From the NCBI RefSeq assembly GCF_051903065.1, contig NZ_CP178438.1: a stretch of DNA of 64,000 bases, one strand, 5' to 3'. Source of the stretch: Escherichia coli. GTDB taxonomy: Bacteria > Pseudomonadota > Gammaproteobacteria > Enterobacterales > Enterobacteriaceae. The position numbers were made by a program, and so were the translations under genes. Positions 3,322-24,045 of the stretch are shown piece by piece. A model generated the notes under the pieces. It saw nothing but the letters and a program-made list of their open reading frames with translations. It was not told where the DNA came from and searched no databases. The stretch's first letter is position 1; each line of letters starts with the position of its first letter.

Positions 3322-4610
3322 GCTTCCGGCTCCCGCTGTTTTTCTCGCAGCACCCGGTCATAGACCTGGGCATAAACTTCATTGAACAGCATTTCAAATC
3401 CTTGCTGTCGGCTGGAGGCCAGCTCATCGTAATAGTTGCTGTACATCTGCCATGCCCAGGCGTCGTCCATTTTCTGGCGCAGTTCATGGCTGCGGCGGTA
3501 TTGCGCAAAGCGGCGCATCAGGTTGCCCGGCGAGAAGGCCTCCAGCATGACACGCAACGCTTCCACAATCGCCGCCCGGTTAGCCTCTTCATGATGCCGG
3601 ATGTTGCGCAGGCTTTCGCCGATGGCCGCGGGTGCTGCGAGATGTACCGGACTTTTACCCTCAGCGAACATGACGTTCAGCGCAGTGGCGTAGTCCATAT
3701 CAAGGCGAAGCGGGTTGTCTTCCAGTGGACGCAGGTGTTTATCCGACAGGCTGTTCTGTTGTTGTTGCAGGCTCAGCAATCCCTTAATGGCAGCCTGCAA
3801 CGCCCGTCCGGCCTCTTCGAGAAACTCATCCGCATCCTGAGAATCGTGCAGCGTCAGCGGGCACTCCATACCGCGCAGCAGCGGGGTCACGGCCAGGTGG
3901 TACTGCGCCATGGCAGAAAATTCATCGTCGTCCTCATAACGGGCATTGCCGGGCGGCAGATCCATAAACGGCGTATTGATCCCGTTTGCACCTGTCAGTT
4001 CGGAGGCGAGGGCGACGGGCCGGGAAACGCGTGGTGCGATCGGATCATCTGCCACCATCAGGCTTTCCGTCTGGAGTGCCTGGAGCGGATCGCTGGAAAA
4101 ACCGTGCGCCACCGTGGGGGCAAGCTGATGCTGGAACGGCATTCCCGGATAGGACGGTTGTCCCTCGGTGGTCAGCAGGGTGTCCGCCAGACTGTCGCGG
4201 TTCATCACAATCGTTTCCGGGGTTGCCATCCGCTCGTCGTAGGTGACAGCCGCGCCGTCATGCAGAAACGCTTTCAACGCCAGTGCACCGAGCTGGATCT
4301 CATCCCCTTGGCGCAGGCGGATGAGCGCACCGGAAGAAACCGGGGCCAGATTAATCATCAGTCCCGGCGTCAGGCACCGCAGGCAATAGGCTCCGTCGTG
4401 CCGGATAACGGTACAGGCACGCGCAGCAATGCTTCCCGCCCGATCCTGTACCTGCCAGTGACATTCCGGCGTATGACCAATATCACCGCCGTTTTCGCTG
4501 AACAGGCATTTTGCGGCGCGTCCGCTTTCCAGTTCGTTGCCATTCATCACCTGTAAAGTCAGTGAGGCCTGGCGGGATTGCTGTTTTTCCTCAGCCATAA
4601 GTGGTTCCAT
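3318..4610 (-). CDS. tagH: T6SS-associated FHA-domain protein (TagH-like)
   Basis: Start moved to the internal ATG at 4610 (MEPLMAEEKQQ...), which follows the tssG stop; FHA-like N-domain (GHTPECHW...IRHDGAYCLRCLTPGLMINL). Confidence 0.75.
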   Translation of the reverse strand: MEPLMAEEKQQSRQASLTLQVMNGNELESGRAAKCLFSENGGDIGHTPECHWQVQDRAGSIAARACTVIRHDGAYCLRCLTPGLMINLAPVSSGALIRLRQGDEIQLGALALKAFLHDGAAVTYDERMATPETIVMNRDSLADTLLTTEGQPSYPGMPFQHQLAPTVAHGFSSDPLQALQTESLMVADDPIAPRVSRPVALASELTGANGINTPFMDLPPGNARYEDDDEFSAMAQYHLAVTPLLRGMECPLTLHDSQDADEFLEEAGRALQAAIKGLLSLQQQQNSLSDKHLRPLEDNPLRLDMDYATALNVMFAEGKSPVHLAAPAAIGESLRNIRHHEEANRAAIVEALRVMLEAFSPGNLMRRFAQYRRSHELRQKMDDAWAWQMYSNYYDELASSRQQGFEMLFNEVYAQVYDRVLREKQREPEA

Positions 4611-4614
4611 AGAA

Positions 4615-5664
4615 TTATTCCCTGATTCGGATGGTGATGGCGGGCGGTACTTTCGGCTGACCAATAAAGCTGGTTCTGCCGAGGCGGGAGCTGGCCGGAT
4701 CGCCAAGGCGCATCCCTTTAGCCTGCTGTGGTGCCAGGCACAGCCGTAAATCCCAGGCAAACTGGTCGCGCAGAATAAAGGAAAGGAACATGGTCAGCGG
4801 CAGGTGATTTTCGCCATCGGGTAAAAATGAGAGATAACGCTCCCGCGACAGGTTGCCAATCTGCAACAGAAATTTTCCGCTGCGATCCGGCACCCGTGCG
4901 CCGAGCGTAAAATTAACGCCAAGTATGGAGCGTCCGGGAATATGTCCAGCCGTTTTTCCTTTCGGATTACGTACACCCAGCCGGTTCTGGTGTGCCGAAT
5001 CAATGGCGACTTTACGTAGTTGCCAGCGTTCAATGGTGACATCCGGCAAATCAAAACAGTGCGACACCAGATTACAGATAACCTCCGGCGCGCGGCCTGG
5101 TGTTGCCAGAATTCCGGCGTAAGCCAGCATTTTGCTGTGGTTAATGGCAAGCCTGTCACGCACGCTCTGATTACCCAGCCCGACCAGCGCGTACATGCGC
5201 TGTGAAAAGGTGTCAGTGCCGCCATTACGAAAGCAGATGTAGTAGCGGTATTTGCGCCAGGCATGATAGGCAAACTGTGTCCAGCGGTGGCTGAACAGAT
5301 CGAGAAATTCTTTAAGGCCGTCTTCGTTCTGTGCGGACTCCTGCGCCATCTGATCCAGATAATAGCCCGGTAGCGGCGACTGGCTGCCGGAAAAGCCCAG
5401 GAAACGGGTTTGCAGTACATACTGTCCGTTCTGGCTACGGGAAAGCACACTCAGGTCCGTACCCGGAAAACCGATATTGGCGTCAGAGCTGAAACGCACG
5501 ATCTCTTGGGCTGGCTCGGTACGCAGGGAAATATCCTGGCCCGGAGCGCCATACCGACGGTACAGCGCCTCCATCAGCACATAGAAATTGCAGTTGCGCA
5601 CATCCGCCGATAACGGCGGTTTTACCGCTATATAAGGGCGTGCTGACCCATTTTCTCCTGCCAT
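4615..5664 (-). CDS. tssG: T6SS baseplate protein TssG
   Basis: 349-aa ORF, TssG/ImpH-like; overlaps the tssF 3' end as is typical. Confidence 0.85.
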   Translation of the reverse strand: MAGENGSARPYIAVKPPLSADVRNCNFYVLMEALYRRYGAPGQDISLRTEPAQEIVRFSSDANIGFPGTDLSVLSRSQNGQYVLQTRFLGFSGSQSPLPGYYLDQMAQESAQNEDGLKEFLDLFSHRWTQFAYHAWRKYRYYICFRNGGTDTFSQRMYALVGLGNQSVRDRLAINHSKMLAYAGILATPGRAPEVICNLVSHCFDLPDVTIERWQLRKVAIDSAHQNRLGVRNPKGKTAGHIPGRSILGVNFTLGARVPDRSGKFLLQIGNLSRERYLSFLPDGENHLPLTMFLSFILRDQFAWDLRLCLAPQQAKGMRLGDPASSRLGRTSFIGQPKVPPAITIRIRE

Positions 5665-7487
5665 TCCCAGGCCTCCTGACTTTCCGTGTTGATGATTTTC
5701 AGACAGTGGTACGAATTGATGCTGGCGTAGAGAGCAAAAAAGTGCGAGAGCACTGTACCAAGAAGATAAATTTCACCTTCGCAGATAAATGGATCGGGAC
5801 GTATCCACAACGTGGTCGCCAGCCCGCGAACCGGCACGCCTTTAAACAACCTGTCAACAGGTTTGGTTTCGAGTTTTTCTATGGCATCCAGTTTCTGGCG
5901 CGACAGTCTGGCCCGCTGCGGATGGTGAGCGCCTGGCAGGTCGAAGGTCCGCAGGATCTGGATCAGTGTCTCCCTGTCCAGCAGGGAGAGGTAGTTCAGG
6001 TTCATCGCGGAAATCAGCGACCAGTGCATGTCGCCGTCCGTGACTGGCCAGAGCGGCTGCGTTGGGCGTGTGACATTATGAAATGAGGCCACCGCCGGGT
6101 TTTTGTTGACGGCCACGCAGATATCGCCGATATGCAGCCGAGCAGGGATCATACGGTTGGTACAGATTAATGACGTGGTGATCACATCATCATTAAACCG
6201 TGAGCTGTCCGGAATGCTGCCGTCCGCATGGACAAAGGCGATACTATGTTCAAGCCCGCGGTGAAACAGGGATGTTTTAGTCCGGTGATGCCAGTAAACG
6301 ACTTCCCGCTGGCGGCTGTACTCCATCTGGTGCTGGAAGCTTTCAAATTCGGGCCAGACACGCGCCTGGCTGCCAGGGTTGGATTCAGTACCTGAAACTT
6401 TGACTTTGCTGGTGACTGTGCTTATCTGAAAAATGTCATAAGCGTCGGGATGCCGGTGGCTGGCGCGCAGCGGGTATTCCGCTATCCGTCCATCAGGCCT
6501 GACGGGTTCCGCATAATGCGTAAACAGGTTAATGGCTGGCGTACAGTGCAGACGCAGTGAGTCCTGGCGTAGCTTGATGTCGGCAGGTAACGGGCGGTTA
6601 AAGTGCAGGCGCAGCGTAAACGCGCTGACCGGGAAATCGTCCGGTAGTGGCGCAACATCGCGCAGATGGAAAAAAAAGAAGGCTTCGGGATAGCAGAAAT
6701 ACTCCTGGAGTACCCGATAGCCGCTGTGGACATTTTTCGGCCACGGTAGCAGGGCGTCCTGGTTTTCAAATCCGGCGGCCTCCAGCCACAGATCCGGCAG
6801 CGGCAGGCGGTACTCTCCGGCAATCAGTTCCGCATCCATCAGGCATTCGCAAAACCACAGATAAAGCTGGTGTCGGGTATAATCGTCTTCATTACCCAGC
6901 CAGAACGTTATTTTGTTCAGGTCAAGCATGGCGGGGGAGACATTGTTATCTGCGGTAAAACTGATATCTATGATGCCTTCTTTCAGGCTGCTGGCGTTGC
7001 GGGTGTCGAGAATGCGCAGTGGTTGCAGCCAGATATCGCGCGCCAGCGTGAAATGACAGGCTACGGAAGAAACGATTTTATCATGATTGTCAGACAGCAC
7101 CTTCTGAGCAGCCAGGGCGGACTTTTCTGAGCGGCTTCTGATCAGTTCATTACGACAGACCTGAACAGGGACTTTTAACTGATCGGTTTTGGGTTCATAG
7201 GCAATAACCGTCATGGCCGGAACCGGGCGTAAATAGTTTGCCCACAGCATACGGATTAGCCCATGAGTGAATTCGGGGAATTCGTCCTCAAGTTTCTGGC
7301 GCAGGCTACCGGACATAAAGGCAAAGGCTTCCATCAGTCGCTCCACGTCCGGATCACCCTCTTTCTCGGCCAGAAAGTGGGCCAGATGTGGTTTTTCCTG
7401 CGCCAGCAGTTTGCCAAGCTGGCGAAGATAATCCAGCTCTTCGCGGTAGTAACGTTCTTCAAAAGCCACAGAGATCACTCCACACAA
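5628..7487 (-). CDS. tssF: T6SS baseplate protein TssF
   Basis: 619-aa ORF; ...EERYYREELDYLRQLGKLLAQEKPHLAHFL is the TssF N-terminal signature. The track start is a TTG, so the exact start (7487 vs a few codons inside) is uncertain. Confidence 0.85.
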   Translation of the reverse strand: MCGVISVAFEERYYREELDYLRQLGKLLAQEKPHLAHFLAEKEGDPDVERLMEAFAFMSGSLRQKLEDEFPEFTHGLIRMLWANYLRPVPAMTVIAYEPKTDQLKVPVQVCRNELIRSRSEKSALAAQKVLSDNHDKIVSSVACHFTLARDIWLQPLRILDTRNASSLKEGIIDISFTADNNVSPAMLDLNKITFWLGNEDDYTRHQLYLWFCECLMDAELIAGEYRLPLPDLWLEAAGFENQDALLPWPKNVHSGYRVLQEYFCYPEAFFFFHLRDVAPLPDDFPVSAFTLRLHFNRPLPADIKLRQDSLRLHCTPAINLFTHYAEPVRPDGRIAEYPLRASHRHPDAYDIFQISTVTSKVKVSGTESNPGSQARVWPEFESFQHQMEYSRQREVVYWHHRTKTSLFHRGLEHSIAFVHADGSIPDSSRFNDDVITTSLICTNRMIPARLHIGDICVAVNKNPAVASFHNVTRPTQPLWPVTDGDMHWSLISAMNLNYLSLLDRETLIQILRTFDLPGAHHPQRARLSRQKLDAIEKLETKPVDRLFKGVPVRGLATTLWIRPDPFICEGEIYLLGTVLSHFFALYASINSYHCLKIINTESQEAWEWQEKMGQHALI

Positions 7488-7900
7488 TAGCGTTGATGGT
7501 TGTCCAGCAAAATGTCAAATTCAAACACTCCCCTGGTTTCGCTGACATCGACCGTAGCCACAATATGAAAACGCAGTTCCACAGGGGCGTATTCATCCGG
7601 TGCAGCAGCCGTAACAACAACATCGGTAATACGAGGTTCGTAATGTAAAATGCACTGGCTAATGGACTTACGGATTTCTCGTCTGAAATCGCTGGAGGCC
7701 AGCGATTCATCATTTAAATCAGTAATCCCCAGCTCTGGTGAGCCATAACAACTGCCGGAGCGGGTATTCAGGACCTGTTGCAGGTTACGTCTGATGGAAC
7801 GTATCAGTGCTTCTTTTGGATTCTGGTATGAAGGCGGGTTGGCCGCCTCACGGATACGTTCAAAAAGACTGCTGGTTGGCCCTGAATCCCGTCTTTGCAT
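7475..7900 (-). CDS. tssE: T6SS baseplate protein TssE (gp25-like)
   Basis: 141-aa ORF between tssC and tssF; size and position fit gp25-like TssE. Confidence 0.85.
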   Translation of the reverse strand: MQRRDSGPTSSLFERIREAANPPSYQNPKEALIRSIRRNLQQVLNTRSGSCYGSPELGITDLNDESLASSDFRREIRKSISQCILHYEPRITDVVVTAAAPDEYAPVELRFHIVATVDVSETRGVFEFDILLDNHQRYCVE

Positions 7901-12423: not shown

Positions 12424-14823
12424 ATGTCCTTAAAAGGTCTGCGCTTTACGCTGGAGATTGACGGCCAGGAGCCGGACACCTTTGCAGTGGTGAATTTCAG
12501 GTTAATCCAGAACCAGTCTTATCCGTTTGTGATGAGTGTGGATGTTGCCAGCGACTCTTTTATGCAGACGGCGGAGATGCTGCTGGAGAAGAAGGCGACG
12601 CTGGCCATCTGGCAGGGCGCGGTGGCGCAGCGTTATGTCACCGGCGTGGTGGCGGGTTTTGGTATGCAGGAGAACAATGGCTGGCAGATGCGTTATCACC
12701 TGCGTATTGAGCCGCCGTTATGGCGGTGCGGGCTGCGGCAGAACTTCCGTATCTTCCAGCAGCAGGATATCCGGACGATATCGGCCACGTTACTGAACGA
12801 GAACGGCGTCACGGAGTGGACGCCGCTGTTTTATGAGGACCATCCGGCGCGGGAGTTCTGTGTGCAGTACGGGGAGTCGGACCTGGCGTTTCTGGCGCGG
12901 CTGTGGGCGGAGGAGGGAATTTTCTTCTTTGAGCGGTTTGCGGCGGACAGTCCGGAGCAGAAGCTGACGCTGTGCGACGATGTGGCGGGGCTGTCACAGG
13001 CGGGAGAGCTTCCGTTTAACCCGGACACATCGGCAGGAGCGGAGACAGAGTGTGTCAGTATGTTCCGTTATGAGGCGTATGTCCGCCCGTCGTCGGTGCA
13101 GAGCCAGGATTACACGTTTAAGGTGCCGGACTGGCCGGGGATGTATGAGCAGCAGGGTGAGAACCTGAACGGACAGCTGGCGCAGTATGAGATATTTGAT
13201 TATCCGGGAAGGTTCAAGGATGAACAGCACGGTAAGGATTTCACGCTGTACCAGATGGAGAGCCTGCGCAGTGATGCGGAAAAGGCCACAGGGCAGAGTA
13301 ATTCACCGAAGCTGTGGCCGGGAACGCGGTTTACGCTGACGGGGCATCCGCAGAAGATGCTGAACCGTGAATGGCAGGTGGTACAGAGCATTCTGTCAGG
13401 GGACCAGCCGCAGGCGCTGCACGGCAGCCAGGGGAGAGGAACCACGCTGGGAAATCAGTTAGAGGTGATACCGGCGGACCGGACGTGGCGTCCACGGCTG
13501 CAAAGCAAACCGAAGGTGGACGGGCCGCAGAGTGCCATTGTGACCGGGCCGAAGGGTGAGGAGATATTCTGCGACGAACATGGCCGGGTACGGGTGAAGT
13601 TCCACTGGGACCGTTATCACGGGATGACGGAGGCGAGTTCATGCTGGGTGCGGGTATCACAGGCGTGGGCGGGGCCGGGGTTTGGTAACCTGGCGATACC
13701 GCGGGTGGGTCAGGAGGTGATTGTTGACTTCCTGAACGGAGACCCGGACCAGCCGCTGGTCATGGGCCGGACGTACCATGAGGACAACCGTTCGCCGGGG
13801 AGCCTGCCGGGGACGAAGACGCAGATGACGATACGGTCGAAGACCTATAAAGGAAGCGGATTTAACGAGTTGCGCTTTGAGGACGCCACCAGTAATGAGC
13901 AGGTGTATATCCATGCGCAGAAGAACATGGATACGGAGGTGCTCAACGACCGGACAACGGATGTGAAACATGACCATACGGAAACCATCGGTAACGACCA
14001 GAAGATAACGGTGGTGAAGGGTCAGACGGTTCAGGTCGGTACAAAAAAAGAGGGGGGCCACGACCAGAGTATCACGGTGGCGAATGACCGGTGCATCACG
14101 GTACGTAATGACCAGACGCTGCAGGTGACGAATGACCGGACGGTGAGCGTGAGTCACGATGACGGTCTGTACGTAAAAAATGACCGAAAGGTGACGGTGA
14201 AAGGGAAGCAGGAGCATAAGACGACGGGTAACCACATCAGCCTGGTGGAGGGGAAGCACAGCCTGGAGGTGAAGGGGGACCTGGCGGAGAAGGTGAGTGG
14301 CGCGCTGGGGATAAAAGTGGACGGGGATATCGTGCTGGAGAGCAGCAGCCGGATAAGCCTGAAGGTGGGTGGCTCGTTTATCGTCATTCAGCCGGGCGGA
14401 GTGGATATTGCCGGGCCGAAGATAAACCTGAACGGTGGGGGCAGTGCGGGGACACCGGTGGGGACGATGCAGCCGGCGGTGCTGGAGGCTCCGGAGGATG
14501 AGAGCAGTGATGATGGCAGTGATGACTCCGGAGAGGATAGTGGCAATCCCGCAGGGAGTGACGGAGGAGGTGATGGCGGTGACGATGAAGATGATCCTGA
14601 AAAATATACCCTCCAGTTCCATTTTACGGACGATGACGGGATACCGTATTCAGAGACGCAGTATATTGCCTTTTTTGAGGATGGCACACAGACGCGTGGT
14701 GAAACAGACAGAGAGGGATATACAGAAATATTTTATACAGATACAGCACAGGAAATTAAAGTCCAATTGTTATTTTCGGATGCTTTTTATATTGAGCCGG
14801 AGGGGCATTATGGCAGGGAATAA
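12424..14823 (+). CDS. vgrG: T6SS spike protein VgrG with acidic linker and C-terminal extension domain
   Basis: 799 aa; gp27/gp5-like body, repetitive beta-helix (VKNDRKVTV...), acidic Asp/Glu/Ser-rich linker, then a ~65-aa C-terminal domain. Confidence 0.9.
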   Translation: MSLKGLRFTLEIDGQEPDTFAVVNFRLIQNQSYPFVMSVDVASDSFMQTAEMLLEKKATLAIWQGAVAQRYVTGVVAGFGMQENNGWQMRYHLRIEPPLWRCGLRQNFRIFQQQDIRTISATLLNENGVTEWTPLFYEDHPAREFCVQYGESDLAFLARLWAEEGIFFFERFAADSPEQKLTLCDDVAGLSQAGELPFNPDTSAGAETECVSMFRYEAYVRPSSVQSQDYTFKVPDWPGMYEQQGENLNGQLAQYEIFDYPGRFKDEQHGKDFTLYQMESLRSDAEKATGQSNSPKLWPGTRFTLTGHPQKMLNREWQVVQSILSGDQPQALHGSQGRGTTLGNQLEVIPADRTWRPRLQSKPKVDGPQSAIVTGPKGEEIFCDEHGRVRVKFHWDRYHGMTEASSCWVRVSQAWAGPGFGNLAIPRVGQEVIVDFLNGDPDQPLVMGRTYHEDNRSPGSLPGTKTQMTIRSKTYKGSGFNELRFEDATSNEQVYIHAQKNMDTEVLNDRTTDVKHDHTETIGNDQKITVVKGQTVQVGTKKEGGHDQSITVANDRCITVRNDQTLQVTNDRTVSVSHDDGLYVKNDRKVTVKGKQEHKTTGNHISLVEGKHSLEVKGDLAEKVSGALGIKVDGDIVLESSSRISLKVGGSFIVIQPGGVDIAGPKINLNGGGSAGTPVGTMQPAVLEAPEDESSDDGSDDSGEDSGNPAGSDGGGDGGDDEDDPEKYTLQFHFTDDDGIPYSETQYIAFFEDGTQTRGETDREGYTEIFYTDTAQEIKVQLLFSDAFYIEPEGHYGRE

Positions 14824-15613
14824 TAATACTAGTGGGACTTCACAACCCGAGTCGCAAGTATGTGTAGTACCGCAAAAAATTACAAATAAATTTAAAATAA
14901 TGATGAGTAAGGCTTGTAAAGCACAGAAAATGGTTTTATTGAAAAGAGCAGATGATATTATGTCATGGGAGGGGGAACAACAACGAGATTTTATTAAAGT
15001 TTTTGGCCTTAAAGGCGAGGACATTATAAAAATCAGAAAAGTTGGGGAAGATACTGGGAAACGAATGCAAGCGAGACTATTCATAATGGATGGCATCAGA
15101 CGAATAATGACGATTGCAAATGGTTTGACGATCGAAAGCTATAAAGATTATACGAACTGCAATGAATTTGCTGCTTTTATTAGTCCACATCTTGATCCTC
15201 CTTACATTGTAAATATCGGAGCGCATTTTGAATACAGACATGGTATAAAACAGTCGGTTACAGGTAGAGACTCTCATGTAAGTACACTTTGCCATGAAAT
15301 GTCCCATATATTTTGGTATTGGGGTGACAATCAAAAAGGTGGTATGTGGACTCAGGATTATACGGGTATTAATAAGTTCGCAACAAGTAATAAGGATGAA
15401 GTTAGCTATGAGAAACATGTTTCAGTGGCTAATGATCTGGTTACATTGCGTAAAGATCAGTTATTTGAGAATGCATATAATGTTGAAAGATATTTTTATA
15501 TAAAATTAAATGATGAAGATATTGAAGCTCAAGATGAGAATATGTTAGCAAAAAAAGTAGAGGATAAAATAAAAGAGATAGAAAAATGTTTTGATGAGTT
15601 GACGGGGAAATAA
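14810..15613 (+). CDS. Putative T6SS cargo effector, HExxH zinc-metallopeptidase-like
   Basis: ATG at 14810 overlaps the vgrG stop; AT-rich; HEMSH motif encoded at 15293-15307. The track's longer 14435 start lies inside vgrG and is rejected. Confidence 0.55.
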   Translation: MAGNNNTSGTSQPESQVCVVPQKITNKFKIMMSKACKAQKMVLLKRADDIMSWEGEQQRDFIKVFGLKGEDIIKIRKVGEDTGKRMQARLFIMDGIRRIMTIANGLTIESYKDYTNCNEFAAFISPHLDPPYIVNIGAHFEYRHGIKQSVTGRDSHVSTLCHEMSHIFWYWGDNQKGGMWTQDYTGINKFATSNKDEVSYEKHVSVANDLVTLRKDQLFENAYNVERYFYIKLNDEDIEAQDENMLAKKVEDKIKEIEKCFDELTGK

Positions 15614-15614
15614 G

Positions 15615-16364
15615 ATGAAGAGGTTGGCTTTCTATAATCTAAATTATGTTGTACTGATGGTTTTTTTTCTTTGTTTTTTGCCATTATCTATTGCAATTGC
15701 AATAGATAATGAGAATCTTTTTGTAAAAAAATACAGATTCGGTTTTGAACGAAGAAGTGACAATGGGAAACCAATTATTTATCTTAGCCATAATTTAGCG
15801 CCAGAGGAAAATATAAGTAATGAATTAACAAATGATGTTGTTGTTAAATTGGTGGTTAAGCCACATGCTGAAAATATTTTAGCTACTATAACTTTTTATA
15901 ACAGTAGTACTAAATCGTATTTTCTCCCCAGAATATATTATCCAAAGAACTTCCAAAAAGGAAATGGAGATGTATTTGATGCTTTGTGTGATGACGAATT
16001 CTTGATTACATCAGGAAATATTAGCTTAGACTATCTAGGAGGCTTTTGTCCCTTTGAGCTTGATTTGAATTTGAGCCGATGGGTGGAAATTACGGCAGGT
16101 AAAAAAATATCTTTTGATGTAAAATTGAATGATATGCATTCATTTCTCCCCAGTTTAAATAATTATCATATAAAAACATTAAACTACAAACTTGTTAGGA
16201 GAAAATGGTTTGTATTAAAATCAATTAATGAAACATTCCTCTCTATTTTGATGAAAAGATACTCATGTAATGAATATGATTTTAGAGCTATATCATTTAG
16301 TGGAGAGGGATGTGATAATTATGAATTTGATAAAAATACGTTTTTTTTGTTAATCAAATATTAG
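15615..16364 (+). CDS. Signal-peptide protein, candidate cognate immunity protein
   Basis: Start 1 nt after the effector stop; N-terminal hydrophobic signal (VVLMVFFLCFLPLSIAIA); AT-rich. Confidence 0.5.
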   Translation: MKRLAFYNLNYVVLMVFFLCFLPLSIAIAIDNENLFVKKYRFGFERRSDNGKPIIYLSHNLAPEENISNELTNDVVVKLVVKPHAENILATITFYNSSTKSYFLPRIYYPKNFQKGNGDVFDALCDDEFLITSGNISLDYLGGFCPFELDLNLSRWVEITAGKKISFDVKLNDMHSFLPSLNNYHIKTLNYKLVRRKWFVLKSINETFLSILMKRYSCNEYDFRAISFSGEGCDNYEFDKNTFFLLIKY

Positions 16365-16600
16365 ATAAAGATGATGAGCAACATTCTGTTCATATTAGGT
16401 CTAATGAATTTTCCATCAATATCGATGGAAGCTTGGTAAAGCAACCTTATTGATTAAAATGTATCGCAGGTTTTATTTTCTGTAATGCTGGTGCATGTGC
16501 GTAAATATTTCTTAAGAGCCGGAAACACCTCTTCCGCCTTTATCGACGATAAACCTACCGCCAGAACCGGTGATGCCATTGACTGCGGTGGCGTGGTTAA

Positions 16601-16941
16601 AGGTGGAGGGCGATGTGGTGCTGGAGAGCAGCAGCCGGATAAGCCTGAAGGTGGGCGGTTCGTTTGTGGTCATCCATTCAGGGGGCGTGGACATCGTCGG
16701 GCCGAAAATCAATCTCAATAGCGGCGGTAGTCCGGGAACGCCGGTGCCGACGCTGCAACCGGCGGTTCTGAAAGCGCTGGCAGATGATAAAAGTTTAGCG
16801 GCTGAGCAAAATGATAGTAATGCATCGTCCGATCAGAATGATAACAACGATGAGGGTGAGGAAGCGCCAGAAAAATCGGTGTGTAAGGAGTGCCTGAAAA
16901 GGGCGCAGGAAGCCGCCGCCGCTTTTGCGCCTCGTGGATAA
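16601..16941 (+). pseudogene. Orphan vgrG 3' remnant with a different C-terminal tail
   Basis: Nucleotide and protein similarity to vgrG 14310-14470 (VLESSSRISLKVGGSF.V.IQ/HSGGVDI.GPKINLN.GGS.GTPV), then a divergent acidic tail; no vgrG N-terminal body upstream. Confidence 0.7.
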
Positions 16942-18602: not shown

Positions 18603-20663
18603 GTGTTATGCCCCCCAGCGTTTCCTGAAAATGGGCGATTAATATTATCTGAAGCGCAGGTAAACGCGAACTACCTAAAACAAATCAATAAAACAGAAGA
18701 GCACAAAACCAACTGTAGTAAACAGGCTGGATTTAGAATTGGCTTTACGTGTAATCAAAGTCTGCATATTAGTCTGTTTTTTGATGGTACAAATAATAAT
18801 GAATATAATGACACTCCTGGACACCCAATCAATATTGCCAAACTGTTTCATACGACCTATCAGAACGCAGAAGAACAGGGATATTTTAACTACTATATAC
18901 CGGGTGTAGGCACACCATTTCCCAAGATAGGTGAAATGGATTACAGCAACAGCGGGCTGGAGTTCGCTACTGGTGGTGAAGATCGAATTAATTGGGCATT
19001 ATTACGCCTCGTGGATGCCCTGAGCTATTCCATTGACCCTTCCCATAAGCGACTGGATGATAATGTGGCAAAAGAGCACATTCCTCTTATGCGCGCTCCC
19101 TGGCCTATGACTGGTGAAGTGAATCGTCGCAATGTGATTAACCCCTACCTGGAAAAATTACAGGGACTGTTAGAGCAAGCCAGTCCGCGCCTGCTAAACG
19201 TAAAGCTGTTTATCTACGGATTTTCCCGTGGCGCAGCGGAAGCACGAACTTTTGTTAACTGGTTGACTCAGTTAGCTTGCCCGCAGGAGCAACAGGTGAT
19301 GCTGGCCGGGTTAGCTGTCAGTATTGAGTTTTTGGGGCTGCTGGATACCGTAGCTTCTGTGGGGGCGGCGCATGTTTTACCGGGCGCTGCCGGTCATATG
19401 GGATGGGCCGATAGTACTCAGCAACTCCCTGATGAGAGGCAGTTTCCCGGCCTGATTAAATGCTGCCGCCACTTCGTTGCCGCGCATGAGCAGCGGCTGT
19501 GCTTTCCGCTGGATTCAATCCGTCGTCCAGACGGAAATTATCCTTTAAATGCAGAGGAAATTATCTATCCGGGGATGCACTCTGATGTCGGTGGTGGCTA
19601 TCCCGTTCGCGATCAGGGGAAGTCCTGTGGTGACTCAGGCGAAATTCTTTCTCAGATAGCACTGCATGATATGTATCTTGCTGCATTTGATTCAGGAGCA
19701 CCACTTGCTGTTTATTCTAAATTTGTTACTCCATTAATAAAAGGTGTGTCGCCTCTGCGAATTATGAGTCCTTCTAGCGTAAAGGAATTTACGATTGCTA
19801 ATTCATTAACAAAACGCTTCAACATCTGGCGACAAACGCTGCTGAACACCACCTTGCAGGGTACAGAAGAAATGATTGATACGAGGGAAGGTTATCACTC
19901 CTATCAACTTGCCCAGGTTCTTGAAAGCGCAATTAGCGATCAGATCGGCTGGATCACCGCCTGGCGTATCGGTCGCTATGCGAATAACAGCCTTCTTGTG
20001 CAACCTTTTTATATTAAGGCGCCACAGCTGGATAAAGATGGACTTGATAAAGAGGCTAAAGCGCGTAAAGAACAAATGGAAAATATTGAAAAAGAGCGGG
20101 CGAACAAGCAGAAAGGGAATGGCACACTTGATGAAAGTAATCAGGGCATTCCTATCCTTGACCCAACCAATGCTCAGTATCAGTTGCGAGAGGCAGCCCG
20201 AGAATTTCAGAGCGATTATAAAGGATGGACGCGCGATATTAACGGCAGCGTCATGGAGAAAGCCATTCAGATTCTTGTGGATGTCATTCCTAAATATCCG
20301 GTGTATCTGATTAATGGCGATGATGAAGCAAAAGAATATCAGCAAATTAAGGCTATGGGAGACGGACTCTATCCACAATTTTTTATTGATTCACTGGGAA
20401 CGGGAACGCGTACTCAGCCCTGCGCTGAATTACTGGCTCTCTATGATGACCAGGTTCACGACTCCCGCGCCTGGTTTATGCAAAGTTCGCTGGGTGGACG
20501 CGAACCCTGGGGCGGTTATTTTCGCTACCGCATGATTTACTTCGGTGATGAGGCTAATAAAGAGCTGAAGCTAATCTCTGCAGATGGCAAAGTTGTTGGT
20601 GATCAGCCCACATCCAACCGGGTCATTTATTGGATGGAATCGAAAACGGTGAGCCGAGGTTAA
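18603..20663 (+). CDS. tle1: T6SS phospholipase effector, Tle1-like (DUF2235, GxSxG)
   Basis: 686 aa; LFFDGTNNN N-terminal core motif and GFSRGA (GxSxG) at 19217-19234. Start codon uncertain: GTG 18603, no in-frame ATG upstream. Confidence 0.7.
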   Translation: MLCPPAFPENGRLILSEAQVNANYLKQINKTEEHKTNCSKQAGFRIGFTCNQSLHISLFFDGTNNNEYNDTPGHPINIAKLFHTTYQNAEEQGYFNYYIPGVGTPFPKIGEMDYSNSGLEFATGGEDRINWALLRLVDALSYSIDPSHKRLDDNVAKEHIPLMRAPWPMTGEVNRRNVINPYLEKLQGLLEQASPRLLNVKLFIYGFSRGAAEARTFVNWLTQLACPQEQQVMLAGLAVSIEFLGLLDTVASVGAAHVLPGAAGHMGWADSTQQLPDERQFPGLIKCCRHFVAAHEQRLCFPLDSIRRPDGNYPLNAEEIIYPGMHSDVGGGYPVRDQGKSCGDSGEILSQIALHDMYLAAFDSGAPLAVYSKFVTPLIKGVSPLRIMSPSSVKEFTIANSLTKRFNIWRQTLLNTTLQGTEEMIDTREGYHSYQLAQVLESAISDQIGWITAWRIGRYANNSLLVQPFYIKAPQLDKDGLDKEAKARKEQMENIEKERANKQKGNGTLDESNQGIPILDPTNAQYQLREAAREFQSDYKGWTRDINGSVMEKAIQILVDVIPKYPVYLINGDDEAKEYQQIKAMGDGLYPQFFIDSLGTGTRTQPCAELLALYDDQVHDSRAWFMQSSLGGREPWGGYFRYRMIYFGDEANKELKLISADGKVVGDQPTSNRVIYWMESKTVSRG

Positions 20664-20734
20664 GTTCATAAGATTGAGGGGGGGGTGACCGGGAAAATGT
20701 AGACATGTAGTGCCTAATCACCCCAGTTCAAACC

Positions 20735-20762
20735 CATCCGCATCCCGCCATGCCGGAAACTT
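20735..20762. repeat. 28-bp copy of the yafV 3' end (direct repeat with 23283-23310)
   Basis: CATCCGCATCCCGCCATGCCGGAAACTT is identical at both sites. Confidence 0.8.
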
Positions 20763-20920
20763 CACACTGTACTCCCAGGGAAAAATCACGTAATGCTGCT
20801 TTTTTTGTACTAAATAATTCGCATTTTATGTTCAATAATTGAGGTGTTCCTTATTACCTAAAGCTGTTTTTCATTGCTTATACATGATCAAATACTCATT
20901 GCATAATTAAGGGGGGCAAA

Positions 20921-21684
20921 ATGGAACTTAAAAAATTGATGGAACATATTTCTATTATCCCCGATTACAGGCAAGCCTGGAAAGTGGAACATAAATTGCC
21001 AGATATTCTATCTGTTAACTATTTGCGCCGTTATTTCTGGTGCATAATGCTGGGAAGATATAGAGGATTTGGGGAAACACATCCCGATTTTTTGAAGTGA
21101 TATGGTGATTTTGAAAATGGTATTCCTGTTCACGATATCATTGCCAGAGTTGTATCCTGTATCAGTCCTGAAAAATTTCATGAGTGCTTTATTAACTGGA
21201 TGCGTGACTGTCATTCTTCAGATGATAAAGACGTCATTACAATTGATGGAAAAACGCTCCGGCACTCTTATGATAAAAGTCGTCACAAGGGAGCAATTTA
21301 TGTCATTAAAATCCGTCTTCATATTGTTTGCATGTCTCTGATGAATTTATTGATTTTACGTTTGAATGGAAAGGGCTGAAGAAATTATGCATGGCAGCCT
21401 CATTTCGCTCAATAATAGCAGAACAAAAGAAAAATCCCGAAATGACGGTCAGATATTATAGCATTTCTGCTGATTTAACCGCAGAGAAGTTCGCCACAGC
21501 GAACCGAAATCACTGGCAAGTGGAGAATAAATTGCACTGGCATCTGGACGTGGTAATGAATAAAGACGACTTCAAAATAAGAAGAGGAAATGCAGCAGAA
21601 TTATTTTCAGGGATACCGAAGATCGCTATTAATATTTTAACGAAAGATAAGATAATCAAGGCAGGGGCAAGATGTAAGATGTGA
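20921..21684 (+). pseudogene. ISAs1-family (H-repeat-associated) transposase pseudogene with internal deletion and stops
   Basis: [26 protein letters not shown]... N-terminus, in-frame stop, and C-terminal part (...[11 protein letters not shown]...[11 protein letters not shown]...) in three broken frames. Confidence 0.75.
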
Positions 21685-21912
21685 AAAGCAGCTGCGGACA
21701 GAGACTACCTCGCGTCAGTCCTTGCGGGGGCGGGCTTTCGTAATCTTGTTCTGCAAGGGATGATAAAAAGTGCAACTTTATTCCACGCAGCTATTTAGAC
21801 AGCGTACAGTAAACAAACGAAAGTTGTTATTTCAATGGTCAGGGCAAGAGCATGAAGTGTTTACTACACACTATGCTCTTGTCCTGGAGTCAGGTCTTGT
21901 TTGGAGGGATAA

Positions 21913-22416
21913 ATGGTAGATATTGTCGAGGCCGATAAAACGGATATTTATTTCATTCAGGAGAGTGTTTATGGTAAAATCGGGCTGCCAGCTTTTGGTA
22001 ATACAATAGGACCATCTGCACAGCAGGTTGTTAAAAAGGTATTCGCTGTCGTTAAAGAACGAGATAAGACACATGCAAAACAGAGATTATTGTTGGAATA
22101 TAATGGTAACAAACTCTGGATGAATGCTATTGATGGCAGTGAAGCTATCCTACCAATAGAATTTTCTAAGCGATACGAACTTTCATTATTCAATACTACT
22201 AATTTTGGAGAAGATCCTTTTCCTGATGTTAATTTATATAATAATATGAAATCAAGTTTTTTTGTAAGGTTTGGTGGAACATCCCATCCCGAGGCTTGGG
22301 CTATTTATAATGCAAGTACGAAAGAGGTTAAATATATAGAAACTGCAAGAGAAATTGATAAAATATTCAGTGATTTTAACTTGAGTGGTACATTGCCAAT
22401 TCACATTGGTCAATGA
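21913..22416 (+). CDS. Hypothetical protein (AT-rich, unknown function)
   Basis: 167-aa ORF with GGAGGG RBS; no family recognised. Confidence 0.5.
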   Translation: MVDIVEADKTDIYFIQESVYGKIGLPAFGNTIGPSAQQVVKKVFAVVKERDKTHAKQRLLLEYNGNKLWMNAIDGSEAILPIEFSKRYELSLFNTTNFGEDPFPDVNLYNNMKSSFFVRFGGTSHPEAWAIYNASTKEVKYIETAREIDKIFSDFNLSGTLPIHIGQ

Positions 22417-22482
22417 TTTTTTAAATTGTGTGATTAAATAATTGAACATTAGTGATGATTTATAGCATCATTATTCTATAAC

Positions 22483-22995
22483 ATGAATAAACGGATTGAA
22501 TGTGTTATGTTAAAAATGAGTTTATACGTAATAATATTGTTATTTTCCTTTCAGATTAGTGCAGCCATTACTAGCAAGGAAAGTGAGGTTGTTTCACCAT
22601 TATTAATGGATGTTAATTCTTCACTAACAATGCAAAATATTTCTGAATTATCCACATCATCGGAACCATCGCAACAGGGGGTATTTCCTGTAATATGTAC
22701 TCGACTTCATCCTGGCTCCGTAATGAAACGCCAGTTATTAACCGGCTGGGGGCCTGTTTTTATAATTGGTGATGATCCTTTTTCTCTGCGCTGGATGAGT
22801 GAACATCTGGAGATCCTTAAATCGCTAAATGCCCTTGGTTTGGTTGTTAATGTTGAATCAGTAGAACGAATGGAGGTATTACAGCAGCGGGCTGATGGGT
22901 TATTGTTATTGCCAGTTATCTGCGATAATTTCGTGCAAACTCTGCAATTAAATGCTTATCCGGTATTAATCACAGAGATGGAAATATCACAATGA
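22483..22995 (+). CDS. Hypothetical secreted protein (signal peptide)
   Basis: 170-aa ORF; N-terminal hydrophobic signal MSLYVIILLFSFQISAAIT; AT-rich. Confidence 0.5.
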   Translation: MNKRIECVMLKMSLYVIILLFSFQISAAITSKESEVVSPLLMDVNSSLTMQNISELSTSSEPSQQGVFPVICTRLHPGSVMKRQLLTGWGPVFIIGDDPFSLRWMSEHLEILKSLNALGLVVNVESVERMEVLQQRADGLLLLPVICDNFVQTLQLNAYPVLITEMEISQ

Positions 22996-23017
22996 TTAAT
23001 AACATAATTACTGCAAA

Positions 23018-23222
23018 TAATATCGTAATTTTGAAAATGGTAATCCTGTTCACGGCACCATAATTAGAGTTATGTCTTGTATCCGTTCAGTATAATTTCA
23101 CGAATGCTTTATTAACTGGATGCGTGACTGCCATTCATCAAATGACAAAGACGTCATCGCGATTGATGGAAAAGCACTTCCACACTCCTATGATAAAAGT
23201 GGTCGCAGGAGAGCGGGCTTTC
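23018..23222 (+). pseudogene. Second ISAs1-family transposase fragment (about 200 bp, direct repeat of 21095-21300)
   Basis: YGDFENG...[24 protein letters not shown]... segment is duplicated at both locations. Confidence 0.7.
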
Positions 23223-23268
23223 GTAGTCTTCCCCGACTCTCCCCAGCCCTAAACACAACACCCACTCA

Positions 23269-24045
23269 CTACAACCTAAACTCATCCGCATCCCGCCATG
23301 CCGGAAACTTATCGCGATATTCCCTTAACACCGCCATCGACAGCTCCGCATCAATGCGCGTTGCCTGATGCGCGTCGGCAGTAGCGATAATCTCGCCCTG
23401 TGGATTAATCACCCGGCTGTCACCGCGATAATGGCAGCCGTTGCCATCGCTGCCGACGCGATTGCATCCCGCCACATACGCCTGATTCTCAATCGCGCGG
23501 GCCGTCAGCAATGCCTGCCAGTGCAGAGAGCGCGGAGCAGGCCAGTTGGCAACGTAGATGGCGAGGTCATAATCGTTGAGATTGCGCGACCACACCGGAA
23601 AACGTAAGTCGTAGCACACCAACGGCAAAATACGCCAGCCGCGCCATTCCACAATCACTCGCGCATTGCCCGCTTTATAATGCAGATGCTCATCTGCCAT
23701 GCGGAACAGATGACGCTTATCATAAAAATGTACCGTGCCGCCCGGCTCAACCAGCAAAAAGCGGTTAACCGAACCAGACTCCGTTTGTAATGCAACACTG
23801 CCTGCAATCAGCGCATTGCACTGCTGCGCTTTGGCTGTCATCCAGTTCACTACGTCATCTTGTGCTAGCGACGAAGCAGCCGCTTCCATGGCAAAGCCGC
23901 TGGTAAACATCTCCGGTAGAACGATCACATCGCGCCCGGTAATACCTTCCAGTTGACGATCAAAATGACGCAGGTTGGCAGGGCCATCCATCCACACCAG
24001 TGGTTGCTGCAAAAGCGTAATCTTCAAACCAGGCACGGTGTACAA
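23269..24045 (-). CDS. yafV: Carbon-nitrogen hydrolase family protein YafV
   Basis: 258-aa ORF, nitrilase-superfamily sequence; true start may be 3 codons internal. Confidence 0.9.

What the first reader, a model, noticed from the sequence alone, without database searches (positions are those of the whole stretch)
21913..22995. Two uncharacterised AT-rich ORFs between the ISAs1 fragments
Neither the 167-aa protein nor the 170-aa signal-peptide protein resembles anything I can name. They sit at the edge of a T6SS island, which is a typical location for orphan immunity genes or small toxins.
Basis: inference. Interest (0 to 1): 0.45.

Follow-up and report, generated by a model that had tools for sequence, protein, structure and literature searches.

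The report
T6SS-linked orphan gene and ICE relic
Two small foreign genes are kept together at the edge of an E. coli type VI secretion island: the first belongs to an undescribed protein family that sits beside the secretion-tube gene hcp in other bacteria and is probably a new toxin family, and the second is a lone exported protein that came from a conjugative element.

Summary
Both ORFs are real, AT-rich genes (34.5% and 37.6% GC against 49% for the window). They lie between two ISAs1 remnants at the yafV end of the aspV T6SS-1 island.

**ORF2** can be named. It is a complete DUF2859 / TIGR03765 "PFL_4695" protein. Its closest non-E. coli relatives lie in MPF_G conjugative elements, between an SLT-like gene and traD. 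The model shows a signal peptide, a disordered linker and a thioredoxin-like domain in which G-D-D..S replaces CxxC. Its conserved start is probably 22507 (162 aa).

**ORF1** matches no Pfam, NCBIfam, PHROGs, PADLOC or PDB entry, and its confident model has no known fold. It does have about 190-aa remote homologues. These sit directly after hcp, inside T6SS clusters, or in orphan cassettes followed by a 4-TM protein and DUF805. That pattern suggests an undescribed T6SS cargo-effector family.

The E. coli clade is atypical. It lacks about 32 residues, is acidic, and is followed by ORF2 instead of the 4-TM partner.

The pair is present in about 553 of 5426 complete E. coli genomes. It exists as two co-diverged alleles with dN/dS of 0.2–0.4.

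Their function as an effector/partner pair is inferred, not shown. Interest is moderate.

The parts
21913..22416 (+). ORF1, 167 aa, 18.9 kDa, pI 5.6, no signal peptide. A diverged member of an undescribed T6SS/hcp-linked family. It lacks the family's central ~32-aa segment.
   Evidence: ORF; PGAP 'hypothetical protein' WP_047625027; homologues; alignment; AF2 pLDDT 85, pTM 0.80; no fold match; physico-chemistry
21903..21908 (+). GGAGGG Shine-Dalgarno sequence, 4 nt upstream of the ORF1 ATG
   Evidence: read directly from the sequence
22483..22995 (+). ORF2, longest frame 170 aa. The likely true start is 22507 (162 aa). A DUF2859 / PFL_4695 family exported protein.
   Evidence: start-codon argument from the second allele
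22507..22563 (+). Predicted Sec signal peptide of ORF2 (MLKMSLYVIILLFSFQISA|A)
   Evidence: hydropathy profile; inference, because no dedicated signal-peptide predictor was available
22681..22992 (+). Thioredoxin-like C-terminal domain of ORF2 (residues ~67-170). The invariant G96-D97-D98..S101..W104 occupies the position where CxxC would sit.
20776..21748 (+). ISAs1-family (ISEc1-like) element copy 1, a pseudogene with a 312-bp internal deletion and frameshifts
   Evidence: PGAP annotation; alignment to the intact ISEc1 of strain THO-008
23015..23230 (+). ISAs1-family fragment, copy 2. It is 81% identical to 21095-21294 and equals K-12 yafF in part.
21840..21886 (.). Imperfect hairpin (21-nt arms, 81% complementary, 5-nt loop) between the IS end and ORF1. 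Role unknown.
18603..20663 (+). Tle1-family T6SS phospholipase effector. It is the last effector cassette of the island and its Tli1 (DUF3304) immunity gene lies upstream. Context only, not part of the module.
23269..24045 (-). yafV, the first core-genome gene, which marks the island boundary

Best explanation
**Shown.**
- The module is two horizontally acquired genes of different origin. They are inherited together at the yafV edge of the E. coli T6SS-1 (aspV) island.
- ORF1 is a diverged member of an uncharacterised family of ~190-aa cytoplasmic proteins whose genes are repeatedly linked to T6SS.
- ORF2 is a complete, exported DUF2859/PFL_4695 protein. Its nearest relatives outside E. coli are core genes of MPF_G integrative conjugative elements. 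Its folded domain is thioredoxin-like and has no CxxC.
- Both genes evolve under purifying selection.

**Inferred.**
- The ORF1 family is a T6SS cargo effector small enough to travel inside Hcp. It probably acts on the envelope, because its usual downstream partners are a 4-TM inner-membrane protein and a DUF805 membrane protein, the pattern expected of immunity proteins.
- In the E. coli lineage the effector lost a ~32-residue segment, became acidic and lost the 4-TM partner.
- The ICE-derived periplasmic ORF2 now occupies the partner position. It most plausibly acts as ORF1's binding or neutralising partner in the periplasm, where incoming effector arrives.

I put the family assignments at about 0.85, the claim that the ORF1 family is a T6SS effector at about 0.55, and the claim that ORF2 is ORF1's functional partner at about 0.3.
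For: **ORF1 family.**
- An exhaustive phmmer search found 29 cluster representatives, about 20 of them ~190-aa proteins at 30-40% identity.
- P0029 lies 16 bp downstream of an orphan hcp.
- P0038 lies inside a T6SS cluster after tssB and tssC.
- In Rhizobium etli the order is tssH-hcp-X-tai-tae4-vgrG. In R. leguminosarum it is hcp-X-vgrG.
- Homology to the Rhizobium proteins is confirmed by hhalign at 99.2% probability, E about 1e-19.
- In Serratia, Morganella and metagenome loci the gene is followed by an overlapping ~135-157-aa protein. Seven of eight such partners have four hydrophobic segments at conserved positions, and a DUF805 protein often follows.

**ORF2.**
- Family scores and retention of all family-invariant residues.
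- The 57%- and 46%-identical relatives sit between an SLT-like gene and the coupling protein in ICE backbones. The same is true on pEB102 and pUM505.
- Homology to the ICEs is confined to the ORF2 coding sequence.
- Thioredoxin fold.

**The pair.**
- It is present in 553 genomes, always next to yafV.
- The upstream effector cassettes vary: Tle1, Cpe1, PAAR-like.
- Two alleles have co-diverged, with dN/dS 0.22-0.37.
- In the CFT073 lineage, where ORF1 was replaced by IS630, ORF2 carries a frameshift and a nonsense mutation.
Against: - No experiment or expression datum exists. No sigma-70 promoter stands out: 9 sites found against 6.4 expected.
- ORF1 has no recognisable toxin domain or catalytic motif, and no known fold.
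- E. coli ORF1 lacks a segment present in every other member and is acidic where the others are basic. It may no longer be toxic.
- In R. leguminosarum the homologue has no adjacent immunity candidate, which fits an accessory protein as well as a toxin.
- DUF2859 has no known link to T6SS. ORF2 is unrelated to the family's usual 4-TM partner.
- The CFT073 decay is a single evolutionary event.
- Context sampling covers about 12 independent loci and is not a statistical survey. The planned genome-wide scan could not run.
Confidence: 0.5

Rival explanations
1. The two genes are unrelated leftovers with no joint function: a decayed effector gene and a single-gene ICE remnant, trapped between IS copies and carried along with the island.
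For: - The genes have different evolutionary origins.
- ORF1 has an internal deletion and lost its usual partner.
- ORF2 lacks any T4SS context.
- IS elements flank the module and rearrangement at this locus is frequent.
- K-12 lacks the pair without obvious consequence.
- The DNA is AT-rich and has no convincing promoter.
Against: - Both frames are intact across a divergence of dS 0.4-0.7, with dN/dS 0.22-0.37.
- Full-length forms dominate the protein clusters: 762 and 899 member sequences.
- ORF2 keeps every family-invariant residue.
- ORF1 has a strong ribosome-binding site.
Confidence: 0.25
2. The ORF1 family is a T6SS accessory protein, such as an Hcp-associated adaptor or chaperone, rather than a toxin. 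ORF2 is then an unrelated neighbour.
For: - In R. leguminosarum the gene sits between hcp and vgrG with no immunity candidate.
- In R. etli it precedes a Tai/Tae4 pair, which it could serve.
- E. coli ORF1 has no membrane partner and is acidic, as chaperones often are.
Against: - In at least eight orphan loci the only neighbours are small polytopic membrane proteins, so there is no effector to chaperone.
- It shows no similarity to known adaptor families. No Pfam hit such as DUF4123, DUF1795 or DUF2169 was found.
Confidence: 0.15
3. Both genes are orphan immunity genes that protect against effectors of other strains.
For: - The position at the island edge is one where orphan immunity arrays accumulate. 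This rests on established T6SS biology and is an inference here.
- ORF2 is periplasmic.
Against: - ORF1's homologues occupy the effector position of cassettes: the first gene, followed by membrane proteins.
- Neither gene matches a known immunity family.
- There is only one copy and no array.
Confidence: 0.07

Closest known systems
PFL_4695 / DUF2859 proteins of MPF_G integrative conjugative elements and plasmids (for example on pUM505 of P. aeruginosa, pEB102 of Erwinia billingiae, and enterobacterial ICEs)
   Same: ORF2 passes both curated models. It has the same length and the same layout of signal peptide, linker and C-terminal domain, and it keeps all invariant residues.
   Different: In those elements the gene lies between an SLT-like lytic transglycosylase gene and traD within a full conjugation backbone. 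Here it is a solitary gene in a T6SS island beside ORF1, and homology to the ICEs stops at the edges of the coding sequence. The family's function is unknown, and the searchable literature uses it only as an island marker.
Periplasmic thioredoxin-fold oxidoreductases (TlpA / ResA / DsbE-CcmG)
   Different: There is no CxxC. The strand-to-helix turn carries the invariant G-D-D..S instead, and the family has no conserved cysteine. A redox role is therefore unlikely. From my own recall, untested here, F-plasmid TraF is a comparable thioredoxin-like conjugation protein without CxxC.
Small Hcp-dependent T6SS cargo effectors with membrane immunity proteins (for example Serratia Ssp4/Sip4 and Ssp6/Sip6)
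   Same: The ORF1 family consists of small proteins encoded next to hcp or in orphan two- or three-gene cassettes, with integral-membrane partners downstream. Sip4 is likewise an integral inner-membrane immunity protein (PMC12669606).
   Different: There is no sequence relationship. Ssp4 is 331 aa with predicted transmembrane helices. The ORF1 family is soluble, beta-rich and has no matching fold. E. coli ORF1 has no membrane partner.
Re78/Re79 effector-immunity pair of Rhizobium etli Mim1
   Same: It occupies the same slot between hcp and vgrG that the ORF1 homologue occupies in R. etli IE4771/IE4803 and R. leguminosarum. Re78 is T6SS-secreted and acts in the periplasm, and Re79 is a periplasmic immunity protein (PMC10215855).
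   Different: Re78 is about 356 aa and its sequence is unrelated. It shows that the slot holds effectors. It does not show that ORF1 is one.

Membership tests
Pfam PF11072 DUF2859 / NCBIfam TIGR03765 PFL_4695 (ORF2) | Score above the curated threshold of the family model | tested here: met
   PF11072 99.6 bits against 25; TIGR03765 120.7 bits against 59.75, with model positions 1-105 of 105 matched
Pfam PF11072 DUF2859 / NCBIfam TIGR03765 PFL_4695 (ORF2) | Family-invariant residues retained | tested here: met
   All 20 invariant columns of a 43-sequence alignment are present in ORF2. These include P69, V70, P77, G78, R83, G96-D97-D98, S101, W104, N123, Y159 and P160.
Pfam PF11072 DUF2859 / NCBIfam TIGR03765 PFL_4695 (ORF2) | N-terminal export signal | tested here: met
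   A hydrophobic core is followed by ISA|A. This rests on hydropathy only, with no dedicated predictor.
Pfam PF11072 DUF2859 / NCBIfam TIGR03765 PFL_4695 (ORF2) | Location in an MPF_G conjugation backbone (SLT-like gene upstream, traD downstream) | tested here: not met
   There are no conjugation genes in the island. Typical contexts are shown. Homology is limited to the coding sequence.
Thioredoxin-fold thiol-disulfide oxidoreductases (ORF2) | Thioredoxin-like fold | tested here: met
Thioredoxin-fold thiol-disulfide oxidoreductases (ORF2) | CxxC (or CxxS) active-site motif | tested here: not met
   The corresponding turn is G96-D97-D98-P-F-S101, and the family has no conserved Cys.
Unnamed hcp/T6SS-linked ~190-aa family (ORF1) | Significant sequence homology | tested here: met
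   phmmer E-values from 3.9e-26 to 1e-4 against about 20 clusters; hhalign 99.2% probability to the Rhizobium members; reciprocal tblastn of members to ORF1 only
Unnamed hcp/T6SS-linked ~190-aa family (ORF1) | Full-length architecture, including the central D-x-Y..G..W segment | tested here: not met
   Both E. coli alleles lack about 32 residues that are present in all other members.
Unnamed hcp/T6SS-linked ~190-aa family (ORF1) | Downstream 4-TM partner gene, with or without DUF805 | tested here: not met
   Only 66 bp (90 bp counted to the likely 22507 start) separate ORF1 from ORF2. No partner-like ORF exists anywhere in the 64-kb window. ORF2 is unrelated to the partner profile.
T6SS cargo effector (ORF1) | Genetic linkage to hcp, vgrG or T6SS core genes | tested here: met
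   The window is a T6SS island. Homologues lie next to hcp or inside T6SS clusters.
T6SS cargo effector (ORF1) | Adjacent cognate immunity gene | tested here: inconclusive
   ORF2 is adjacent, exported and co-inherited, but nothing shows that it neutralises ORF1.
T6SS cargo effector (ORF1) | T6SS-dependent secretion, and toxicity relieved by the immunity protein | not testable with these tools
   Requires secretome, toxicity and competition experiments.
Known effectors Re78, Ssp4 and Ssp3/Tfe1 (ORF1 family) | Sequence or size identity with the published protein | tested here: not met
   Re78 is 356 aa with an unrelated sequence. Ssp4 is 331 aa with TM helices. Tfe1 is 20.6 kDa with its immunity gene upstream, whereas the Serratia member is 21.9 kDa, has katG upstream and its partner downstream. 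No Tfe1 sequence was available, so that exclusion rests on gene arrangement only.
Tli1 (DUF3304) immunity to the neighbouring Tle1 | DUF3304 domain | tested here: not met
   Neither ORF matches DUF3304. A separate DUF3304 gene lies directly upstream of Tle1.

The most novel reading that the evidence does not exclude
A redox-dead thioredoxin-fold accessory protein of conjugative type IV secretion (DUF2859) was captured from an ICE and re-used as the periplasmic immunity or partner of a T6SS effector. That effector belongs to a previously undescribed family with a new fold, and ORF2 replaced the family's ancestral 4-TM immunity protein. This would be cross-system exaptation between two secretion machineries. 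It would also give the first functional handle on both DUF2859 and the ORF1 family.
Probability: 0.2. Interest if true: 0.65.

Novelty: new member of a known kind. Interest (0 to 1): 0.45.

Why it matters
- **A possible new effector family.** If the ORF1 family is a T6SS effector, it is a new family with no recognisable fold or domain. It occurs in Serratia, Morganella, Rhizobium, E. coli and environmental Proteobacteria. Its membrane-protein partners point to an envelope target.
- **A useful natural variant.** The E. coli version has an internal deletion, a charge reversal and a different partner. That makes it useful for dissecting toxicity and immunity.
- **A testable idea for DUF2859.** The thioredoxin-like fold without CxxC gives a concrete, testable idea for a conserved but unstudied core gene of PAPI-1/ICEclc-type elements.
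- **Practical use.** The module is a stable marker of the yafV boundary of the E. coli T6SS-1 island, while the effector cassettes to its left are swapped.

Tried and rejected
- **ORF1 as a relative of the ICE gene upstream of DUF2859.** That gene is SLT-like and 174-209 aa. hhalign gave probabilities of 0.5% or less, and tblastn of ORF1 against four ICE loci found nothing.
- **K-12 YkfM or YafU as counterparts of ORF1, ORF2 or the 4-TM partner.** There is no similarity.
- **ORF2 as a diverged 4-TM partner.** No similarity.
- **ORF1 family = Re78.** Rejected by reading the published alignment.
- **ORF1 family = Ssp4.** Rejected on size and TM helices.
- **ORF1 family = Ssp3/Tfe1.** Unlikely on mass and gene order. 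No sequence was available, so it is not formally excluded.
- **Anti-phage defence or phage origin.** No convincing PADLOC or PHROGs match; the only line is a marginal Cas8b match to P0029, E 0.0078. No BFVD fold match.
- **A structured RNA in the region.** No Rfam match at E of 1 or less.
- **Plasmid-borne copies.** The three 'plasmid' hits are mislabelled chromosomal sequence.
- **Literature by accession.** Searches for the protein accessions and locus tags found nothing. DUF805 together with T6SS found nothing.
- The AFDB fold library was unavailable.

Full report
**Where the window comes from.** The window is from Escherichia coli. The 2.8-kb stretch around the finding is 100% identical to three complete chromosomes. 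In one of them the annotation reads tssH-tssK-tssJ-tagH-tssG-tssF-tssE-tssC-tssB, hcp, vgrG, an M35 peptidase, a VgrG fragment, DUF4123, DUF3304 (Tli1) and Tle1. Then come an ISAs1 pseudogene, a hypothetical protein, an 'integrating conjugative element protein' and an ISAs1 fragment, followed by the core genes yafV, ivy and fadE. The finding is therefore the last module of the aspV/yafV T6SS-1 island.

**Checking the observation.**
- ORFs of 167 and 170 aa are at the stated coordinates.
- Their GC content is 0.345 and 0.376, against 0.494 for the window.
- The left IS copy spans about 20776-21748 and is an ISEc1-like element with a 312-bp deletion. The right copy, 23015-23230, is a fragment 81% identical to the middle of the first.
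- ORF1 has a GGAGGG ribosome-binding site.
- ORF2's conserved start is almost certainly Met-9 at 22507, giving 162 aa. The divergent allele has a stop codon upstream of that position, and PGAP uses the same start.
- The N-terminus MLKMSLYVIILLFSFQISA|A looks like a Sec signal peptide.

**The ORFs are maintained genes.**
- The 1.2-kb module occurs at 80% coverage or more in 553 of 5426 complete E. coli genomes, once per genome.
- It is always beside yafV. The 'plasmid' hits are mislabelled chromosomal sequence.
- A second allele (strain A16) is 68% and 75% identical at the protein level. Synonymous divergence is 0.4-0.7 and dN/dS is 0.22-0.30 for ORF1 and 0.34-0.37 for ORF2.
- Full-length proteins dominate the public clusters.
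- The effector cassettes to the left differ between strains: Tle1/Tli1 here, Cpe1/Cpi1 in S88, PAAR-like toxins in A16. The pair stays in place.
- K-12 lacks the pair. Its yafF pseudogene is the 3' part of the IS joined directly to yafV-proximal DNA. Its ykfM and yafU genes are unrelated membrane proteins.

**ORF2.**
- It matches Pfam DUF2859 (1.9e-28) and NCBIfam TIGR03765 'PFL_4695 family integrating conjugative element protein' (2e-35, full model length).
- A profile search gave 804 relatives. Apart from the E. coli clade, the closest are 57% and 46% identical. They lie in enterobacterial ICE backbones between an SLT-like gene and the coupling protein, followed by DtrJ-like, RAQPRD, DUF3262, DUF2976 and similar genes.
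- The same order is seen on the MPF_G/MOBH plasmids pEB102 and pUM505.
- Similarity between the window and these elements is restricted to the ORF2 coding sequence.
- ORF2 keeps all 20 invariant residues of a 43-member alignment.
- No solved structure exists by sequence.
- The AlphaFold2 model has a disordered N-terminal part (residues 1-66) and a confident C-terminal domain with pLDDT above 90.
- The turn where CxxC would sit is the invariant G-D-D-x-x-S, and the family has no conserved cysteine. I infer a non-redox, binding or scaffolding role.
- The literature I could search mentions the family only as an island marker.

**ORF1.**
- No Pfam, NCBIfam, PHROGs or PADLOC model matches ORF1. Among the homologues tested, the only lines are chance-level: SfsA_N to one alignment member, Cas8b to P0029 and SdpR to P0032, all far below any curated cut-off.
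- No PDB sequence matches either.
- The word-indexed search found only E. coli proteins.
- The exhaustive HMMER search found 29 representatives, about 20 of them ~190-aa proteins at 30-40% identity.
- In the alignment, both E. coli alleles lack about 32 residues that all other members have. G99, D101, P102 and L108 are invariant, and a G-x-D-P-x-P...L-Y-x-N...G-G motif is shared.
- E. coli ORF1 is acidic (pI 5.6), whereas the other members have pI around 9.
- With this alignment AlphaFold2 gives a confident, mostly beta model: pLDDT 85, pTM 0.80.

**Genomic contexts of the ORF1 family.**
- P0029 is encoded 16 bp after an orphan hcp.
- P0038 lies within a T6SS cluster between tssC and tagJ and is followed by a 4-TM protein.
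- Eleven Rhizobium replicons carry a 197-aa homologue. The order is tssH-hcp-X-tai-tae4-vgrG in R. etli and hcp-X-vgrG in R. leguminosarum. hhalign gives 99.2% probability.
- In R. etli Mim1 the same slot holds the proven effector/immunity pair Re78/Re79 (PMC10215855). Re78 itself is unrelated.
- In Serratia, Morganella and several metagenome loci the gene forms an orphan cassette. It is followed by an overlapping 135-157-aa protein, and in at least four loci by a DUF805 or DUF805-like protein.
- The middle proteins are weakly homologous to one another. Seven of eight have four hydrophobic segments at matching positions.
- No such partner exists anywhere in the window.

**Interpretation.**
- A small soluble protein is linked to hcp or to T6SS clusters in unrelated lineages. 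Elsewhere it is followed by co-varying integral-membrane proteins. This is the signature of a T6SS cargo effector with membrane-embedded immunity. I take that as the most likely nature of the family (inference, about 0.55).
- The E. coli clade is a derivative. It carries the internal deletion and the charge change, it has lost the 4-TM gene, and an ICE-derived exported protein sits in the partner position.
- Three facts fit a functional pair in which ORF2 binds or neutralises ORF1 in the periplasm. The two genes co-diverged, both are under purifying selection, and ORF2 became a pseudogene (1-bp deletion plus TGG to TAG) in the CFT073 lineage, where IS630 replaced ORF1. This is weak evidence, about 0.3.
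- The main rivals are that the genes are unrelated relics, or that the ORF1 family is an Hcp-associated accessory protein. The second is suggested by the R. leguminosarum arrangement, which has no immunity gene.

**Comparison with known systems.** ORF2 is a sequence member of DUF2859/PFL_4695 but fails that family's contextual criterion. It has the thioredoxin fold but fails the CxxC criterion. ORF1 belongs to no described family. It resembles Hcp-dependent cargo effectors in organisation only.

**Limits of this analysis.**
- There are no expression or functional data.
- Context sampling covers about a dozen loci.
- The signal-peptide call and the placement of the CxxC-equivalent position are my reading of sequence and secondary structure.

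**Verdict.** The finding is a candidate new T6SS effector family, represented here by an atypical member, paired with an orphan ICE protein. Interest is moderate.

Noticed in passing
window 20713-20776 and 23261-23324: A 64-nt direct repeat (77% identity, with a 28-nt exact core) brackets the whole IS-ORF1-ORF2-IS block. The right copy is the 3' end of yafV, and the left copy sits just after the Tle1 stop codon. The exact core is duplicated only in the Tle1-type arrangement, not in S88, THO-008 or CFT073. This suggests that the Tle1 cassette arrived by recombination carrying a foreign piece of yafV.
   Followed up: partly
window 21840-21886: An imperfect hairpin (21-nt arms, 5-nt loop) lies 27 nt upstream of the ORF1 ATG, between the IS end (~21748) and the allele-conserved block that begins at 21872. 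Its role is unknown. No Rfam family matches.
   Followed up: partly
L010 (CFT073) 7001-7549; window 22461-23010: In CFT073-type B2 strains ORF1 is replaced by an IS630 remnant. ORF2 carries a 1-bp deletion and a TGG-to-TAG nonsense change, so PGAP annotates only a 66-aa C-terminal piece.
   Followed up: yes
L002 (K-12 MG1655) 4258-5379: K-12 has ykfM and yafU (unrelated membrane proteins, opposite strand) at this locus. Its yafF pseudogene equals window 21465-21742 (the IS 3' part) fused to yafV-proximal DNA. K-12 therefore looks like an IS-mediated loss or alternative of the ORF1-ORF2 module.
   Followed up: partly
L015 8001-13100 (JGI metagenome contig): This T6SS cluster has no hcp in the usual slot between tssC and tagJ. 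The slot instead holds the ORF1 homologue, a 4-TM protein, several signal-peptide proteins and a 126-aa Cys/His amidase-like protein, which looks like an effector/immunity array.
   Followed up: no
L027 (Salmonella Senftenberg NZ_LN868946.1) 7001-7478: A degraded copy of the ORF1 family (48% identity to P0029, in two pieces, annotated as 119 aa) lies between the T3SS effector gene sseK1 and rpoC, away from any T6SS gene.
   Followed up: no
PLSDB records NZ_CP141089.1, NZ_CP010208.1, NZ_LN868946.1: These records are labelled as plasmids but carry core chromosomal genes (yafV-ivy-fadE, or thiC-rpoC). One of them is 4.9 Mb. They are mis-assigned chromosomal sequence and should not be read as evidence of plasmid carriage.
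   Followed up: yes
L011 (E. coli A16) 6204-6617: In the strain with the divergent allele, the gene immediately upstream of ORF1' is annotated as a 'thioredoxin domain-containing protein' at the end of a PAAR-like effector cassette. This is a second thioredoxin-like protein at the same island edge. It was not compared with ORF2.
   Followed up: no
cluster 2 (Serratia): The 90% cluster of the 193-aa Serratia homologue also lists many 149-aa proteins, which are the downstream 4-TM partner. This is probably a clustering artefact of overlapping or fused gene calls.
   Followed up: no
window ~14810-16941: According to the identical annotated record, the VgrG is followed by an M35-family peptidase gene and a hypothetical gene. 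These are followed by a C-terminal VgrG fragment, which indicates a second, partly duplicated effector-loading module upstream of DUF4123-Tli1-Tle1.
   Followed up: no
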